DNA of 64,000 nucleotides, taken from NCBI GenBank assembly GCA_008534395.1, contig SHMQ01000002.1, forward strand, positions 1,557 to 65,556, in the 5' to 3' direction. The stretch comes from Candidatus Acidulodesulfobacterium acidiphilum (GTDB lineage: Bacteria > SZUA-79 > Acidulodesulfobacterales > Acidulodesulfobacteraceae). The notes under the pieces are model-generated. The model saw only the letters and a program-made list of their open reading frames with translations. It did not search any database and had not been told where the DNA came from. Below are positions 1,259 through 59,914 of this stretch, one piece after another. How positions within the stretch are numbered: the stretch's first letter is position 1; every line of letters starts with the position of its first letter. A program made the position numbers and the translations under genes.

Positions 1259-2011
1259 CTATGATTTTTTTGACTTGCAAGTATATTTTATATACCAAGC
1301 TTTACATCCCACGGTAAACAAAGGAATAAATGCGCTTATTCCGTAAACCAAAGCGCTTTTTACCATAAGGTCGAAAAAAGACGGCCTTATTAATTTATAA
1401 AACAACAAAGAGTAATAAACCCTTTTCTGCGGCAAACTTCTGTCTATGAATTTTGCCCAAGAAAAAAAAGTAACGAAATAATGCCCTATCGAGACAAAGC
1501 CGGATAATTTATAAAGCAGATAAAAAACAACTATTGAAAAACCGCCTATAAGCCCTATCATAACCGTTCTTCCCGTTAGAAGGGATAATATAGCTATTTT
1601 GGTTATTCTTCCCGTATAAAGGCTTGCAAGGGTCAGGCAAAGCATTAAATAAGCTATAAGCGGAAGAAGCGCAACCGATATTAAAAGAACCTGCTTAAAT
1701 AACCCTATCGGATGTCCGGTAAAAAAATATACGTAATCAGGTATTATAAAGGCAAGCAGAGGAAATAAGAGTAAAGTAAAAAGCAGTTCAAAAGAACCGT
1801 GTTTCATTCCTACGTTCATATACTCAAGCCTGTCTTTATAAGTAAATCTGTCTGTTTGCAATTTAACGCCCTCTAATTCTATAGCTCTCCATTTTTGCAC
1901 TTGGTCTATAACTTCCATAAATGTTAGAACTTTTTTCTTTTTTTCGGGCATCATAACGCCCGGAGTGCCTGAGCCTTGATTAAACATACCATCGAAATCA
2001 TCATTATTCAT
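1259..2011 (-). CDS. polytopic membrane protein, unknown function
   Basis: ORF track gives 1259..2032. The ATG at 2011 (MNNDDFDG) has a GGGGG SD and overlaps the iscB stop as ATGA. Several long hydrophobic segments. Confidence 0.6.
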   Translation of the reverse strand: MNNDDFDGMFNQGSGTPGVMMPEKKKKVLTFMEVIDQVQKWRAIELEGVKLQTDRFTYKDRLEYMNVGMKHGSFELLFTLLLFPLLAFIIPDYVYFFTGHPIGLFKQVLLISVALLPLIAYLMLCLTLASLYTGRITKIAILSLLTGRTVMIGLIGGFSIVVFYLLYKLSGFVSIGHYFVTFFSWAKFIDRSLPQKRVYYSLLFYKLIRPSFFDLMVKSALVYGISAFIPLFTVGCKAWYIKYTCKSKKS

Positions 2012-3249
2012 AGCTCGGATACCCCCATACAAGGGAGGAGAGCTATCCTCCTTGTTTTAAAAGTTTCAATCAACCTTAATTTTATATATTTAACCGAAGC
2101 GTTGATTTTTTCTCCGGTCAAAAGCCTTAAATCAAAATAGCCTGAACTTCTTAAGCTGTAAATAAAGCACTCTATCTTGCCGTATAATACCTTATCAAAC
2201 CTGTGGAAACCAAAAGCCTGTTTAATGGTATTAACCTTTCTTTTACCGCCTTTAAGCAGGTTAGCCTTAAATAAAGAGCGGTTACACTTGCGGACGTATT
2301 TAATGAAATAGTTATTGTCCGTCCTTTCCTGTCCGCTCCCGCCTGCTATGCAAAAGGCGTCGTTAGCGTGGCTCTTTTCGAGTTTTAACGCTATCCTTGA
2401 GGACTTGGTAAGGTAGCCGTAAGTAATGCTAACGGCGTTGCCTAACTCCCGCAGCTTATTAACTATCTTCCAGCGCAGGATAGACATAATAGTTTCAGCT
2501 TTAAAGGCTTTATGTTTCTTGACTTTAAGCTCTATCTTGCCTTTATGATACGCCTTATGGCAACTTTCGCATAATGTTATAAGGTTATCCGGTCTATCCC
2601 CGCCTGTCTGACGGCTTTCGATGTGGTGAACGTTTAATACCTTATCCTTGCTCTTGCCGTTACAAGCTTGGCATTTATGACCGTCCCTGTAAAGAACGTA
2701 TTCCCTTACGTTCCAAAAGTCCTTTTGATCGCCGTTCTGATAGTCCGTTCCCGTTATATCCGGATTCTTAATTTTCTGGATATCGAAAACAGCGGCTTCG
2801 ACGGTAATCTCCGATACAGGCAATATAGACTTAACAAAATCTACCGCTTTAACATGCTCGTTAAGCCTGTGTTCTACGCTCGGAGCGAGCCAACCGGCTT
2901 TAATACCACGGTTTAAGAAACGAGCCTTGCGATACCATAACCTATTGCGTCTCGTCCTGCGGTATTGCCTTTTCTCCGATAAGAGCTTTTGTATGTCGGT
3001 TCGTAATTCTACTTCGGAGCGAAAAAGCTCTTTATCGCTTGATACCGCCGATAATCCGACGTGCTTATAGCCGGTATCGACGCCTAATTTGACGTCTTGA
3101 ACCTGATTTTCACAATCAAAGTTAAGCTGAATTGTAAAAGGCGTTCTTTTAACCACTTTAGCCCTGCCTTGCTTTAAAAGTTTTCTTGCTTTAGCCGCTT
3201 TGCACGGCATTAACGGTTTACCGTCAATACTTAAAACATAGACTAACAT
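2008..3249 (-). CDS. iscB: IscB RNA-guided nuclease (OMEGA system, Cas9-ancestor family), copy 1
   Basis: 413 aa. PLMP motif (DGKPLMPC). RuvC-I GVDTGYKHVG. Arg-rich bridge RQYRRTRRNRLWYRKARF. RuvC-II ITVEAAVFD. HNH insert CQAC..HHIESRQTGGDRPDNLITLCESCH. RuvC-III SHANDAF. Confidence 0.9.
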   Translation of the reverse strand: MLVYVLSIDGKPLMPCKAAKARKLLKQGRAKVVKRTPFTIQLNFDCENQVQDVKLGVDTGYKHVGLSAVSSDKELFRSEVELRTDIQKLLSEKRQYRRTRRNRLWYRKARFLNRGIKAGWLAPSVEHRLNEHVKAVDFVKSILPVSEITVEAAVFDIQKIKNPDITGTDYQNGDQKDFWNVREYVLYRDGHKCQACNGKSKDKVLNVHHIESRQTGGDRPDNLITLCESCHKAYHKGKIELKVKKHKAFKAETIMSILRWKIVNKLRELGNAVSITYGYLTKSSRIALKLEKSHANDAFCIAGGSGQERTDNNYFIKYVRKCNRSLFKANLLKGGKRKVNTIKQAFGFHRFDKVLYGKIECFIYSLRSSGYFDLRLLTGEKINASVKYIKLRLIETFKTRRIALLPCMGVSEL

Positions 3250-3521
3250 AATCGTTTTTAAAACCTCCTGTTAGTTGAAGTTAGATACGCATCGGGAATG
3301 TTATTCAAGGTTTTTAAGTCTGTCACACTATCCATTACCCTCTCAGGATTGTTTAATAACAGACCACAGTTGCTACGGACTTGCGTTTTACGGGTCAATT
3401 CCCGATATCCGTAGGTGTGTGCCTTATAGGTTCTCTTGAATAACTGCTGATTAAACATAATTTAATCTCCCTTATCAACCGGCTTTTGCAAGCCTGCGGA
3501 TTTATCCGCGGGTGGTTGACT
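3250..3521 (-). ncRNA. omega-RNA-like scaffold upstream of iscB copy 1 (left end of element at about 3521)
   Basis: Locally GC-richer region directly 5' of iscB. Shares nucleotide blocks with the region upstream of iscB copy 2: ACCACAGTTGCTACGGAC, ATCCGTAGGTGTGT, GGATTGTT, TCAACC...GGTTGACT closing stem, and an internal hairpin CCTGCGGATTTATCCGCGGG. The 66-aa ORF here is probably spurious. Confidence 0.7.
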
Positions 3522-54196: not shown

Positions 54197-55480
54197 CTAC
54201 CTATCAATAAATTGATAGGCTTCCTGCCTCATCGTATGGTTACTATATCCGATACTCTGAATACCCGTAAGAGCATACTCCAGAGGCGTTAATTCCGCCG
54301 TTCCCGGCGTATTTTTTAAGATTGTTAATCCTTCAAGGAAAAGGTTAATACTTGCATTTACATCTCTGTCGTGGACGGCTCCGCATTGCGGGCATATCCA
54401 GAACCTTTCGGATAACTTAAGGTCTTTATGGATATATCCGCAGTCCGGAGTAGAACAAGTTTTAGACGACGGATAAAACCTGTTAACCTTAAATACCTGT
54501 CTGCCGTACCAAGACGCTTTATATTCAAGCATATCGTTAAATTTACTCCACGATACGTCGGATATAGGCTTCGATAAATTACCGTTCTTAACCATTCCTT
54601 TGATATTTAAGTCCTCGAGAACGATAACTTGGCTATCGTTTACCGTTCTTGAAGACAATTTATGCAAAAAATCGTTGCGCTGATTAAATATATGTTCGTG
54701 CAATTTTGAAAGTTTATTTTTAAATTTAATATAATTCTTTGACGGAGTAGTCTTATCCTGTTTACTGCGTTTATGAACCTTTCTATCAAGTTGTCTTGAA
54801 AGCTTAATAAGGCGTTTTTGGGACTTAAGCAAATATTTCGGGTTAGGTATCTTAAAACTCTCTTTATTATCAAAGCTTGTGCCTGTAGTTATAATGGCAA
54901 AATCTTTTAAGCCTAAGTCTATGCCTGTTGATATACCTACCACTTTTTTAGGTATATACGGAGTAAAAGCAAACTTTTCTACCAGCATATTGACGTAATA
55001 CTTGCCGGACGTAGTTTTAGAAATACTAATAGACTTTACCGCTTCGTAAACTTTCCTATGAAATTTAACCTTTATAGCGGTTTTGAGTTTCGGTATATTG
55101 ATAAAACTGTCCTTTATCTCAAAGCTTTGCGGTATTACGATACTGCTATATACGCCTTTCTTTTTGAAATTGGGATAACCTGCCTGTTTCTTAAAGAATT
55201 TCTGAAAGGCATCGTCCAAATCCTTAAGGCTTGCTTGCAAGGATTGGGAGTTAGCTTCTTTAAGAAAAGAAAAGCCTTTTTTAAGCAAAGGCAATATTTT
55301 TTTAAATTCATAGTAGTTAAATTTAATATTATGAGTTTTATATAAATGCGTAGCTCTTTCAAGAAAGAAATTATATACGAACCGGTTATAGCTCATCTGC
55401 TCGTCGAGATAAGCTACCTGCTCGGCGTTAGGATATAACCGAAATCTATATACGTAAAATTTATTGTCTCTATCTTTCAT
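54197..55480 (-). CDS. tnpB: TnpB (IS200/IS605-family OrfB, RNA-guided nuclease)
   Basis: 427 aa. FRLYPNAEQ start. RuvC triad candidates GIDLGLKDF, VIVLEDLNIKGM, HDRDVNASINL. Zinc ribbon CSTPDCG...CPQCG. Confidence 0.85.
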   Translation of the reverse strand: MKDRDNKFYVYRFRLYPNAEQVAYLDEQMSYNRFVYNFFLERATHLYKTHNIKFNYYEFKKILPLLKKGFSFLKEANSQSLQASLKDLDDAFQKFFKKQAGYPNFKKKGVYSSIVIPQSFEIKDSFINIPKLKTAIKVKFHRKVYEAVKSISISKTTSGKYYVNMLVEKFAFTPYIPKKVVGISTGIDLGLKDFAIITTGTSFDNKESFKIPNPKYLLKSQKRLIKLSRQLDRKVHKRSKQDKTTPSKNYIKFKNKLSKLHEHIFNQRNDFLHKLSSRTVNDSQVIVLEDLNIKGMVKNGNLSKPISDVSWSKFNDMLEYKASWYGRQVFKVNRFYPSSKTCSTPDCGYIHKDLKLSERFWICPQCGAVHDRDVNASINLFLEGLTILKNTPGTAELTPLEYALTGIQSIGYSNHTMRQEAYQFIDR

Positions 55481-58035: not shown

Positions 58036-58087
58036 CTAAAACCTCCATTATTTAGTTTTATCTAAAATCAGCAATAAGACCCCGTCT

Positions 58088-59269
58088 TTACAAGGCGGGA
58101 ATAAATTGCAACCCCTTGCCGTATTTAATTAAATTGACTAATTCTGTTTTAACGGGCTTTTTTAAACCCGCAAGTTTGATATACTTACCTAAATTCTGCA
58201 TACCTTTAACGAGAAAGGCTTTACCGTTAAATCTTACCAAGTCGTTCGGTTGCAGTTTATACCTTACTTTCCTGATAGACGGTTTAAAGCCCTTGCGGTT
58301 AAGCTGCGTGCATCTATTCTGCCTGCGGGTAAAAGAACCGTTAATAACGTCCGTCCTTTCTTGCCCGCTCCCGCCGGCTATGCAAAAGGCGTCGTTAGCG
58401 TGGCTCTTTTCGAGTTTCAGGGCTATCCTTGCGGACTTGGTAAGGTAGCCGTAAGTAATACTGACGGTATAGCCAAGTTCTTTTAACTTATTAACTATTT
58501 TCCACCGCAGGATAGACATAATAGTTTCCGCCTTAAAGGTCTTATGCTTCTTGATTTTAAGTTCGAGCTTGCCCTTGTGATAAGCCTTATGACAACTTTC
58601 GCATAATGTTATCAGGTTATCCGGTCTATCCGTCCCGCCGTCAGCTCTCGGAGTAACGTGGTGAACGTTAAGTATTTTATCTTTACTCTTGCCGTTGCAA
58701 GCTTGGCATATATGGTTATCACGGTATAAGACGTATTCCCTGACATTCCAAAATCCCGCTTGTTCTCCATTCTGATATTCAACGCCGGATATATCCGGAT
58801 CCTTAATTTTTTGAATATCGAAAGCGGCGGCTTCGACGGTAATCTCCATAACCGGTAAAATAGACTTAATAAATTCTACCGCTTTGATATGCTCGTTAAG
58901 CCTGTGTTCTACCGACGGAGCGAGCCAGCCGGCTTTCTTGCTCTTAACTCTGTTTAAGAAACGAGCCTTACGATACCAGAGGCGGTTTCTCCGAGTCCTG
59001 CGGTATTGCCTTTTTTCGGATAACAGCTTCGGTATATCCGTTCTTAACTCTACTTCGGAGCGAAAAAGTTCTTTAGCACTTGATACCGCCGATAATCCGA
59101 TGTGCTTGTATCCGGTATCGACGCCTAAGGATACAGGTTGCTTTGTTTCTCCCGTCGCATAAGTAAGCTGAATCGTAAAGGGAGTTCTCATAATTACTTT
59201 GGCTAATCCTTTTCTTAAAAGTTTTCTTGCTTTGCCTGCCGTTGTCGGCATTAAAGGCTTACCGCGCAT
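58088..59269 (-). CDS. iscB: IscB RNA-guided nuclease, copy 2
   Basis: ORF track extends to 59470, but those 67 codons overlie the conserved omega-RNA blocks. ATG at 59269 gives MRGKPLMP. GVDTGYKHIG, ITVEAAAFD, CQAC..HHVTPRADGGTDRPDNLITLCESCH and SHANDAF are all intact. Confidence 0.85.
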   Translation of the reverse strand: MRGKPLMPTTAGKARKLLRKGLAKVIMRTPFTIQLTYATGETKQPVSLGVDTGYKHIGLSAVSSAKELFRSEVELRTDIPKLLSEKRQYRRTRRNRLWYRKARFLNRVKSKKAGWLAPSVEHRLNEHIKAVEFIKSILPVMEITVEAAAFDIQKIKDPDISGVEYQNGEQAGFWNVREYVLYRDNHICQACNGKSKDKILNVHHVTPRADGGTDRPDNLITLCESCHKAYHKGKLELKIKKHKTFKAETIMSILRWKIVNKLKELGYTVSITYGYLTKSARIALKLEKSHANDAFCIAGGSGQERTDVINGSFTRRQNRCTQLNRKGFKPSIRKVRYKLQPNDLVRFNGKAFLVKGMQNLGKYIKLAGLKKPVKTELVNLIKYGKGLQFIPAL

Positions 59270-59548
59270 GTTTAAGACGAATACCCGCGGGTTTCGTCCT
59301 CTCCTGCCGGAGAGTAGGTTCTCTTCGGGATTGTTATTAACCGTTTTTAAGCCTGCCGCACTAAGAGTTTCCTCTTTGTTTAACGACAAACCACAGTTGC
59401 TACGGACTAAAGAAGTATCCGTAGGTGTGTCGGTTATCCGTCTTGTTAATAACTTCTGCATTTTTTTCATAATTAATGCCCCCTAATCAACCAGTTGCCC
59501 TTGTGCCTCACGACTCAAGCCCCGTCCGAAAGGGCGGGGTGATTGACT
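59270..59548 (-). ncRNA. omega-RNA-like scaffold of iscB copy 2
   Basis: Same conserved blocks as 3250..3521. The internal hairpin is replaced by CCCCGTCC-GAAA-GGGCGGGG, so the sequence differs but a hairpin is retained. Confidence 0.7.
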
Positions 59549-59554
59549 CGTATT

Positions 59555-59914
59555 CTAATCAAAAGGACGCCAAGCATACCTTAATATTTTTTCAAAAAAA
59601 CCATATTTTTTATTATTATCTGTAAATTCTATAATATTTCTTTTCCATAAAAAGTTTACTATTAAAGATAAAATAATCATGGCAATTATATATGATAGGA
59701 GTCCAAATATAAGTAATGCTATAAGTAATGTAGCCCCTAATAACGGTGTATTGAAATATGAATGTAGCGAAGCATGAAAATGGCTAAAAACATGAATATT
59801 TCTAACTGTATATCCTATTCCAAATAAGATAAGATAAATTAATATAGAACGTAAAGTAAATATAAATAATTTATTAATTAACTTACGCAAATTTTCAATA
59901 TTTAAAGAAACCAT
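59555..59914 (-). CDS. small membrane protein
   Basis: 119 aa with 3 TM helices. Confidence 0.5.
   Translation of the reverse strand: MVSLNIENLRKLINKLFIFTLRSILIYLILFGIGYTVRNIHVFSHFHASLHSYFNTPLLGATLLIALLIFGLLSYIIAMIILSLIVNFLWKRNIIEFTDNNKKYGFFEKILRYAWRPFD

What the first reader, a model, noticed from the sequence alone, without database searches (positions are those of the whole stretch)
58056..59564. Second, diverged IscB element; the annotated N-terminal 67 codons are really omega-RNA
The six-frame ORF (58088..59470) begins inside the conserved RNA blocks. Its N-terminus (..VRSNCGL..) mirrors the spurious 66-aa ORF upstream of copy 1 only because the underlying nucleotide sequence ACCACAGTTGCTACGGAC is conserved. 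Starting at the ATG at 59269 gives MRGKPLMP, a normal IscB N-terminus. The two IscB proteins are clearly related but diverged, and the omega-RNA hairpin near the 5' end is replaced by a different hairpin (CCTGCGG...CCGCGGG versus CCCCGTCC-GAAA-GGGCGGGG). Replacement of one hairpin by another is the pattern expected for a structured RNA. The candidate guide lies at 59549..59564.
Basis: partly seen in the sequence, partly recalled or inferred. Interest (0 to 1): 0.65.

Follow-up and report, generated by a model that had tools for sequence, protein, structure and literature searches.

The report
IscB transposon; guide RNA overlaps ORF
This is an ordinary, recently mobile IscB (Cas9-ancestor) transposon with its guide RNA, but this copy has lost the usual start codon, and relatives suggest the nuclease is translated from an ATG inside the guide-RNA gene, so the "spurious" 67 codons may really be read.

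Summary
Window 58062..59547 (- strand) is a 1486-nt IscB/omega-RNA (OMEGA) element. Rfam HEARO matches 59314..59547 at 123 bits. NCBIfam guided_IscB scores 372 bits. An empty-site joint in two metagenomes and alignments to relatives fix both ends. The guide is 59548..59563 and the TAM is ATAAA at 58061..58057.

The first 200 nt of the 460-aa ORF are structured omega-RNA scaffold. 37 of 47 predicted pairs covary in the family, and copy 1 and copy 2 differ by 9 compensatory pairs.

The proposed start at ATG 59269 is not supported. Homology, the family models and the predicted first beta-strand begin at V63 (59284), upstream of that ATG. Relatives have TTG or CTG where this copy has CCG (59290..59288). 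Yet the CCG lineage keeps the core under purifying selection (dN/dS 0.11-0.16) and occupies several insertion sites.

Across about 150 diverged loci the frame through the omega-RNA is usually open and in frame. Every locus that lacks an internal start has it open. The extension shows no amino-acid-level constraint and is predicted disordered.

My best reading, at about 55-60%, is that translation starts at ATG 59470 inside the omega-RNA. The element is a known kind of system. The dual use is a less-described twist.

The parts
58062..59547 (-). Complete non-autonomous IscB/omega-RNA (OMEGA, IS200/IS605-type) element, 1486 nt
   Evidence: It is 86.5% identical to L001 from exactly 59547 onward. 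An empty-site joint 58061->59550 appears in DNA runs X1 and X2, and loose ends lie at 59547. All relatives start with GTCAA and have unrelated 5' flanks.
59306..59547 (-). Omega-RNA (HEARO) scaffold
   Evidence: Rfam RF02033 matches 59314..59547 at 123 bits. RNAalifold predicts 47 pairs, 37 with compensatory changes. The MFE fold has z=-3.54. A 233-nt contig at 59306..59538, 100% identical, is the only part of the locus found in run X13, whose 'RNA' label is a guess.
59548..59563 (-). Guide segment TTTGATTAGAATACGA, encoded outside the element; it includes the TAG stop of the upstream gene
   Evidence: It lies directly 5' of the scaffold boundary. The 16-nt length is taken from published IscB systems and was not measured here.
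58057..58061 (-). Target-adjacent motif (TAM) / transposon target-site motif ATAAA, flanking the element's 3' end
   Evidence: The flank is ATAAA at 6 of 7 independent insertion sites of close relatives, and AGAAA in L001. It adjoins the guide-matching flank in the empty site.
58088..59470 (-). Long IscB ORF (460 aa) as called; residues 1-62 overlap the omega-RNA and linker
   Evidence: Relatives down to 45% identity keep the same in-frame extension.
58088..59284 (-). Conserved IscB core (V63 to stop): PLMP domain, split RuvC, HNH, C-terminal TAM-interaction region
   Evidence: Pfam, NCBIfam and PDB alignments all start at residue 63. D118, E213, H271 and H357/D360 align with catalytic residues of OgeuIscB.
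59288..59290 (-). CCG codon at the position of the family's canonical start codon (a lost start)
   Evidence: The same position is TTG in L001 and L249/250, CTG in L242-244, CCG in W2, L251-253 and L256/257, and CCA in L255. It aligns with the ATG of copy 1.
59297..59305 (-). AGGAGAGGA Shine-Dalgarno-like motif, 6 nt upstream of the lost start codon
   Evidence: Read directly from the sequence. In L001 the same motif precedes TTG by 6 nt.
59468..59470 (-). ATG inside the omega-RNA; most likely translation start of this copy. A second ATG, the family-conserved 'MQKL', lies at 59459..59461
   Evidence: These are the only canonical in-frame starts upstream of the conserved N-terminus. The GGGGG at 59479..59483 lies 8 nt upstream.
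59479..59483 (-). GGGGG: SD-like for ATG 59470, and also the 5' strand of the long-range/pseudoknot helix of the omega-RNA (pairs with 59327..59330)
   Evidence: Rfam pseudoknot brackets. RNAalifold pairs 81-84/291-294 show GC<->AU covariation.
59267..59269 (-).
   Evidence: It lies inside the conserved N-terminal strand-turn, 25 nt from the nearest SD-like motif.
59517..59540 (-). 5' hairpin of the scaffold, replaced relative to copy 1 by compensatory changes
   Evidence: pairs 14/41, 15/40, 17/38 and 18/37 are changed on both sides between the copies.

Best explanation
Window 58062..59547 (- strand) is an intact, recently mobile, non-autonomous IscB element of the OMEGA / IS200-IS605 kind. 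It sits just after the stop codon of a co-oriented gene on what earlier notes call a conjugative element.

How it works. Transcription reading in from the upstream gene yields an omega-RNA. Its 5' 16 nt (59563..59548) come from the flank and act as the guide. Its scaffold (59547..~59306) folds into the HEARO structure and binds IscB. The complex should cut the empty site (guide match followed by TAM ATAAA), which favours retention of the element. These steps are inferred from the family and were not shown here.

What is particular to this copy and its clade. The iscB reading frame runs in frame through the scaffold. The family's normal start (TTG after AGGAGAGGA) has mutated to CCG. The nuclease is therefore most likely translated from ATG 59470, which lies in a hairpin loop of the omega-RNA 8 nt after a GGGGG that is also one strand of the scaffold's long-range helix. 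This would give a 460-aa IscB with a disordered ~60-residue N-terminal tail whose sequence is dictated by the RNA.

A transcript could then either fold as guide RNA or be translated, which offers a simple feedback. That last step is inference.

My odds: IscB/omega-RNA element about 0.97; translation from within the omega-RNA about 0.55-0.6.
For: Identity of the element:
- Rfam HEARO 123 bits.
- NCBIfam guided_IscB 371.9 bits against a cutoff of 175.
- Pfam RRXRR and HNH.
- OgeuIscB structures matched at E about 1e-45, with catalytic residues aligned.

RNA structure:
- 37 of 47 predicted pairs covary.
- Copy 1 and copy 2 differ by 9 double-compensatory pairs.
- MFE fold z=-3.54.

Mobility and boundaries:
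- Empty-site joint in two runs from different studies.
- Different 5' flanks at GTCAA, and an ATAAA 3' flank at 6 of 7 sites.

Start codon:
- The core starts at V63, and the first strand is 62-66.
- The canonical start runs through the series TTG, CTG, CCG, CCA.
- Core dN/dS is 0.11-0.16 within the CCG/CCA lineage.
- In samples chosen by core similarity alone, 33 of 60 metagenome loci and 4 of 20 viral loci that have this omega-RNA keep a long in-frame open extension from the conserved ATG.
- Length changes downstream of that ATG are multiples of 3 far more often than upstream of it: 78/160 against 39/158, p=9e-6.
- Loci with no ATG/GTG/TTG near the N-terminus number 19 of 101 among open-frame loci and 0 of 51 among closed-frame loci, p=4e-4.
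- On the core tree, presence or absence of that internal start changes at least 16 times, and every tip without one has the open frame.
- Some such loci also lack the internal Met (L078, L136, L231, L108).
Against: - There is no direct evidence of translation.
- The extension shows no codon periodicity: entropy at codon positions 1/2/3 is 1.00/1.01/0.99, against 0.79/0.62/1.58 in the core.
- The extension is predicted disordered, pLDDT below 50. Nothing therefore shows that the peptide itself matters.
- The open frame is lost at least 20 times on the tree. Loci with a TTG start and a closed upstream frame exist (L066, L074, L119, L159, L164, L183), so the extension is dispensable when an internal start is present.
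- The first 80 loci were fetched with a query that included the extension, which biases them.
- The RNA-run evidence rests on contigs from runs whose type is only guessed.
Confidence: 0.6

Rival explanations
1. The 67 upstream codons are only omega-RNA and are never translated. IscB starts at ATG 59269 (MRGKPLMP, 393 aa), and the open frame is a by-product of RNA sequence conservation and of gene callers preferring long ORFs.
For: - The region is a conserved structured RNA.
- The extension has no codon periodicity and no predicted structure.
- The Met at this position is nearly invariant in the clade.
- Published work treats HEARO as a 5' UTR.
Against: - This ATG lies 5 codons inside the conserved N-terminus and would remove predicted strand 1, which corresponds to OgeuIscB residues 1-9.
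- It has no SD-like motif within 25 nt.
- Closed-frame members of the same 'LNMRG' clade start upstream of the strand (L100, L143, L159).
- Clade members without this Met and without any other internal start exist, and all of them have the open frame.
- The bias towards length changes in multiples of 3 downstream of the omega-RNA ATG is not expected for an untranslated RNA.
Confidence: 0.25
2. This copy is translationally crippled. The loss of the TTG start (now CCG) silenced iscB, and the element persists only because TnpA acting in trans still moves it. The open upstream frame is a leftover.
For: The canonical start codon is gone. IS200/IS605 transposition does not need IscB (Meers et al. 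preprint).
Against: - The core ORF is intact with all catalytic residues.
- dN/dS is 0.11-0.16 between members of the CCG/CCA lineage at dS 0.66-1.3. Selection on the protein therefore continued long after the start was lost.
- This lineage occupies at least 4 different sites.
Confidence: 0.1
3. Initiation at a non-canonical codon near the old start site, downstream of AGGAGAGGA, gives a normal-length IscB without use of the upstream ATG.
For: A well-placed SD-like motif is retained at 59297..59305. The TTG to CTG step in relatives shows that weak starts are tolerated.
Against: CCG and CCA are not known initiation codons, and no near-cognate codon lies at a suitable distance. Archaeal relatives such as the 'QNTSVSA' group have neither an SD nor a start there.
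Confidence: 0.05

Closest known systems
IscB-omegaRNA (OMEGA) systems, e.g. OgeuIscB (PDB 7XHT/7UTN) and GstIscB/ISGst5 (Meers et al., bioRxiv 10.1101/2023.03.14.532601)
   Same: - PLMP domain, split RuvC, HNH and C-terminal TAM-reading region.
- HEARO-type omega-RNA directly 5' of the gene, with its scaffold forming the transposon end and its guide taken from the flank.
- Co-oriented with the upstream host gene.
- 3' TAM equal to the transposon's target motif.
- No tnpA inside the element.
   Different: - The canonical start codon is mutated to CCG.
- The reading frame continues through the scaffold to an ATG inside the RNA.
- The characterised proteins start 3-4 residues before the first strand.
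HEARO RNA, Rfam RF02033 (Weinberg et al. 2010; identified as omega-RNA by Altae-Tran et al. 2021, as cited in PMC9755519)
   Same: Full-length match to model positions 1-211. It has the same P1 helix, 5' hairpin, pseudoknot/long-range helices and conserved ACACACC / UUAAAC / UUAAAAAC / AACAAyCCCGA motifs.
   Different: The literature treats it as a non-coding 5' UTR. Here, and in a large clade, positions from about 75 onward also lie in the iscB frame.
Copy 1 in the same window (2008..3520)
   Same: 78% identical protein over 340 aa, the same scaffold architecture, and the same strand and replicon.
   Different: - Copy 1 has its own AGGAGG + ATG start.
- Its omega-RNA-internal ORF (66 aa, 3258..3458) is out of frame and stops 8 nt before that ATG.
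- Its C-terminal ~80 aa are unrelated, so it probably reads another TAM.
TnpB and its omega-RNA, where the RNA overlaps the 3' end of the tnpB ORF
   Same: It sets a precedent within OMEGA systems for one DNA stretch serving both as guide-RNA scaffold and as coding sequence.
   Different: There the overlap is at the 3' end of the gene, with the guide 3' of the scaffold. Here it is at the 5' end and includes the initiation site.

Membership tests
IscB (RNA-guided endonuclease, OMEGA) | Matches the curated family model above its cutoff | tested here: met
   NCBIfam NF040563 guided_IscB (equivalog) scores 371.9 bits against a cutoff of 175, residues 63-365. Pfam RRXRR E=6e-61.
IscB (RNA-guided endonuclease, OMEGA) | N-terminal PLMP domain | tested here: met
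   GKPLMP lies at residues 70-75. It aligns to OgeuIscB residues 4-121.
IscB (RNA-guided endonuclease, OMEGA) | Split RuvC with catalytic acidic/His residues and an inserted HNH domain | tested here: met
   D118 (LGVDTG), E213 (ITVEAA) and H357/D360 (SHANDAF) are invariant in alignment A1 and align to OgeuIscB. HNH spans 255-299, with H271 invariant and H270 nearly invariant.
IscB (RNA-guided endonuclease, OMEGA) | C-terminal TAM-interaction domain | tested here: inconclusive
   The last ~90 residues are conserved among close relatives and modelled as beta-strands at 411-449. The model is weak (mean pLDDT 54.9) and there was no PDB sequence match over this part.
IscB (RNA-guided endonuclease, OMEGA) | RNA-guided double-strand DNA cleavage | not testable with these tools
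   This needs biochemistry.
HEARO / IscB omega-RNA (RF02033) | Covariance-model score above gathering threshold, full length | tested here: met
   123 bits against 83, model positions 1-211, E=6e-25.
HEARO / IscB omega-RNA (RF02033) | Helices supported by compensatory changes | tested here: met
   37 of 47 RNAalifold pairs have both-sided changes across 33 sequences. 9 such pairs differ between copy 1 and copy 2.
HEARO / IscB omega-RNA (RF02033) | Lies directly 5' of iscB on the same strand, with the scaffold starting at the transposon end and a variable guide outside it | tested here: met
HEARO / IscB omega-RNA (RF02033) | Accumulates as a discrete RNA | tested here: inconclusive
   Runs X13 and X19 hold contigs covering only 59306..59538 and 59341..59509, and nothing of the ORF even at 80% likeness. 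These are contigs, the 'RNA' label is a guess, and three true metatranscriptomes held nothing.
IS200/IS605-type element | Carries a Y1 (HUH) TnpA transposase | tested here: not met
   The 1486-nt element is filled by the omega-RNA and iscB. It is therefore non-autonomous, as most IscB elements are. The rest of the window was not screened for tnpA.
IS200/IS605-type element | Insertion next to a short conserved motif, without target duplication; present/absent polymorphism | tested here: met
   The empty-site joint 58061->59550 shows no duplication. Its flanks on the two sides are short (30 and 19 nt) and the depth is low. The flank is ATAAA at 6 of 7 sites.

The most novel reading that the evidence does not exclude
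In a large, old clade of IscB elements spanning bacteria, archaea and some viruses, the omega-RNA scaffold is dual-use DNA. The same ~200 nt fold into the guide-RNA scaffold and are also translated as an unconstrained, disordered N-terminal leader of IscB. Translation would start at a conserved AUG whose ribosome-binding G-run is one strand of the scaffold's long-range helix. Folding or IscB binding and translation would then exclude each other on a given transcript, giving the transposon built-in feedback between nuclease and guide. Databases and curators would be wrong to trim these extensions.
Probability: 0.45. Interest if true: 0.6.

Novelty: new member of a known kind. Interest (0 to 1): 0.45.

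Why it matters
As an element it adds little. IscB/omega-RNA transposons are well described, and this is one more, on a mobile replicon that also carries another IscB and a TnpB.

Two things are useful.

1. The locus gives a complete natural picture: guide, scaffold, TAM, empty site and sister insertions. From that, the TAM (ATAAA) and the target can be read without an assay.

2. This copy is a natural 'start-codon knockout'. Together with about 150 relatives, it makes a concrete question testable: is the guide-RNA gene of IscB also its translation-initiation region? If so, this bears on correct annotation of IscB proteins, on how the nuclease-to-guide ratio is set in the ancestor of Cas9, and on the design of native-context expression constructs.

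Tried and rejected
Copy number in the host genome and a search for tnpA could not be done.
- The phage database gave no DNA match. My first reading of the window as a phage (PHROG hits to helicase, primase and replisome organiser) gave way to 'conjugative element' from earlier notes. I did not test that reading myself.
- I expected a codon-periodicity signal in the extension if it were a functional peptide. There is none, so I dropped the idea that the extension is a conserved protein domain.
- AlphaFold2 with 28 sequences gave a weak model (pLDDT 54.9). I used it only for the N-terminal strand and for disorder, and ran no fold search.
- Three metatranscriptomes from the same study as the DNA runs hold nothing from this locus.
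- The per-segment multiples-of-3 test on the 'long in-frame' set alone is circular. I replaced it with the test on a frame-blind sample.
- treekit independent_pairs was uninformative, because the neighbours of no-start tips are also open-frame.
- Literature searches found no paper that describes translation of the HEARO region or an IscB N-terminal extension. The Altae-Tran 2021 paper was not available in the library.
- dN/dS in the extension itself (0.09-0.45, few sites) is confounded by RNA constraint, so I did not use it.
Full report
**What is there.** The - strand of 58088..59470 holds a 460-aa ORF.
- It matches Pfam RRXRR (residues 63-235, E=6e-61) and HNH (255-299).
- It matches the NCBIfam equivalog model guided_IscB at 371.9 bits against a cutoff of 175, residues 63-365.
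- It matches the solved OgeuIscB structures at E about 1e-45. The RuvC and HNH catalytic residues align, and W2 residue V63 falls on OgeuIscB residue 4-5.
- Rfam's HEARO model (RF02033), the RNA now known as the IscB omega-RNA, matches 59314..59547 (-) full length at 123 bits. It also matches copy 1 at 3280..3520 at 113.8 bits.

**The RNA is real and structured.**
- An RNAalifold consensus over 33 scaffolds (both window copies plus 31 loci from bacteria and archaea) predicts 47 pairs. 37 of them show changes on both sides that keep the pair.
- Between copy 1 and copy 2, 31 pairs are identical, 6 differ on one side and stay paired, 9 are compensatory on both sides, and 1 is unpaired in one copy.
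- The single-sequence fold has the same architecture, with z=-3.54 and no shuffle out of 200 folding as well.
- Three of the covarying helices (59453/59333, 59424/59400, 59391/59351) lie inside the ORF's first 55 codons.

**Boundaries, guide, TAM and mobility.**
- Similarity to the closest genome locus, L001 (86.5%), begins exactly at 59547.
- In 17 loci of the same subclade the scaffold always begins GTCAA, and the sequences upstream of it are unrelated.
- Two DNA metagenome runs from different studies hold a contig that joins 58061 to 59550 and skips 1488 nt. This is an empty site. Other contigs break at 59547.
- The element is therefore 58062..59547 (1486 nt). The guide is the flank 59563..59548, TTTGATTAGAATACGA, and it includes the stop codon of the upstream gene 59555..59914.
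- The 3' flank is ATAAA here and at 5 of 6 other independent sites, and AGAAA in L001. That is the expected TAM and transposon target motif.
- The empty allele reads A instead of G at 59549, two bases from the TAM.
- The joint rests on low depth (2.3 and 3.7) and short flanks (30 and 19 nt), so it is good evidence but not perfect.
- The layout matches the published model: scaffold at the transposon end, guide outside the element, read-in transcription from a co-oriented upstream gene (Meers et al. preprint).
- There is no room for tnpA, so the element is non-autonomous.

**RNA evidence.** Two runs that the tool guesses to be RNA hold contigs covering only the scaffold: 59306..59538 at 100% identity, and 59341..59509. 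They hold nothing from the ORF even at 80% likeness. This fits a stable, processed omega-RNA. But these are contigs from runs of unverified type, and three real metatranscriptomes held nothing.

- ATG 59269 is residue 68. Homology with copy 1, Pfam, NCBIfam and OgeuIscB all begin at V63.
- The AlphaFold2 model, weak overall, puts the first strand at residues 62-66 with pLDDT about 77.
- Copy 1's ATG aligns with W2's CCG at 59290..59288.
- In L001 the sequence is AGGAGAGGA-cgaaac-TTG-AGA-GTA, a good ribosome site with a TTG start. Within the subclade this codon is TTG, CTG, CCG (W2 and at least three other insertion sites) or CCA.
- Loci of the same 'LRV..LNMRG' type with a TTG start and a closed upstream frame exist (L066, L074, L119, L159, L164, L183). 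So TTG is the family's normal start.
- W2 has lost that start. Yet the core has evolved under strong purifying selection within the CCG/CCA lineage: dN/dS is 0.11-0.16 at dS 0.66-1.3. The protein is therefore still made from some other start.

**Is the upstream frame translated?**
- The protein search showed that relatives down to 54% identity carry the same in-frame extension, starting 'MQKL' inside the scaffold.
- That query, and the first 80 loci, included the extension, so they are biased. I therefore fetched 160 more loci with a core-only alignment.
- After de-duplication, 33 of 60 metagenome loci and 4 of 20 viral loci that have this omega-RNA type keep a frame of at least 55 codons, open and in frame with IscB, from the conserved ATG.
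- In this frame-blind sample of 77 loci, non-modal segment lengths are multiples of three in 39 of 158 cases upstream of the ATG and in 78 of 160 cases downstream of it (Fisher p=9e-6).
- Loci with no ATG/GTG/TTG from codon -8 to +1 of the core number 19 of 101 among open-frame loci and 0 of 51 among closed-frame loci (p=4e-4). In the unbiased subset the counts are 7 of 48 against 0 of 32 (p=0.04).
- On a core-protein tree of 152 tips, presence or absence of this internal start changes at least 16 times. Every tip without an internal start has the open frame.
The ATG inside the omega-RNA is their only canonical start.

**What argues the other way.**
- The extension shows no codon periodicity at all: entropy at codon positions 1/2/3 is 1.00/1.01/0.99, against 0.79/0.62/1.58 in the core.
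- It is predicted disordered, with pLDDT 26-36. Its sequence evolves as RNA and not as protein. Only its openness and phase look selected.
- The open frame is lost at least 20 times on the tree, always where an internal start exists, so it is dispensable.
- The Met of LNMRG is nearly invariant in the clade and could serve as a start.
- Nothing here is direct evidence of translation.

**Best reading.** The element is an ordinary, intact, recently mobile IscB/omega-RNA transposon (about 0.97). In this copy the protein is most likely made from ATG 59470 (about 0.55-0.6).
- That ATG sits in the loop of a small scaffold hairpin, 8 nt after GGGGG (59483..59479).
- The G-run is also the 5' strand of the covarying long-range helix with 59330..59327.
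- A folded or IscB-bound scaffold should therefore hide the ribosome site. This suggests a fold-or-translate choice on each transcript, which is inference.

**Comparison with what is known.** Membership in IscB and in HEARO is met on every sequence-level criterion tested. Only biochemical activity is untestable here. The dual use of the scaffold is not described in the papers I could search, which call HEARO a 5' UTR. NCBI's pipeline already annotates the long ORFs. Earlier notes of this scan raised the same idea for other genomes. Those notes are leads, not independent support. The tests above were run here.

**Context.** Almost all genes in the window lie on the - strand. There are replication genes, a TnpB at 54197..55480 and the other IscB. 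Earlier notes call the replicon a conjugative element with a type IV-E CRISPR locus. I did not verify that.

Noticed in passing
window 54197..55480 (-): A 427-aa TnpB (NCBIfam guided_TnpB 316 bits against a cutoff of 100; PHROG 506 'transposase' E=9e-116). It is a third OMEGA-type nuclease gene in the same 64-kb window.
   Followed up: partly
window 3258..3458 (-), copy 1: Copy 1's omega-RNA also contains a 66-codon ORF that starts at the equivalent ATG. It stays open through the whole scaffold, covers the AGGAGG of iscB and stops 8 nt before the iscB ATG. L004 and L005 have the same layout. In L002, L021, L071, L085 and L116 this ORF ends at ATGTTAG, overlapping the iscB start. In L144 and L174 it ends at TTGA, overlapping a TTG start. 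This could reflect translational coupling, or it could be a by-product of RNA conservation.
   Followed up: partly
window 58088..58350 vs 2008..2317 (-): The two IscB copies are 77% identical in DNA up to about residue 375 of copy 2. Beyond that, their C-terminal ~80 residues (the TAM-reading part) and their 3' element ends are unrelated. This mosaic pattern suggests recombination between IscB elements with different TAMs.
   Followed up: partly
window 59549: The empty-site allele seen in runs X1 and X2 has A where the occupied allele has G. The position is guide position 15 of 16, two bases from the TAM, in the expected seed. It could be a strain SNP, or an allele that escapes cutting by this element's own guide.
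   Followed up: no
L251/L253 vs L252: An identical IscB protein (P0007) with an identical 3' flank (ATAAATAATTCGGGGA) but different 5' flanks, and hence different guides. This could be a rearrangement or recombination at the element's guide-side end.
   Followed up: no
L001, L242-244, W2, L255 (codon at window 59288..59290): A stepwise decay of the canonical start codon within one subclade: TTG-AGA, then CTG-CGG, then CCG-CGG, then CCA-CGG. The SD-like AGGAGAGGA is kept in the first three forms (AAGAGAGGA in L255, the CCA form).
   Followed up: yes
runs X13 and X25 (coded), laid on 59360..59547: Besides the exact 233-nt scaffold contig, these runs hold a second 195-243-nt contig of another omega-RNA variant with a different flank beyond 59547. 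No iscB-like contig is present at 80% likeness or more. The organism and library type are hidden.
   Followed up: partly
window 58079..58098 (-): An imperfect hairpin, CCCGCC-TTGTAAA-GACGGGG, spans the iscB stop codon, about 20 nt from the element's 3' end. It may be the subterminal hairpin of the transposon end. It is conserved in L001.
   Followed up: no
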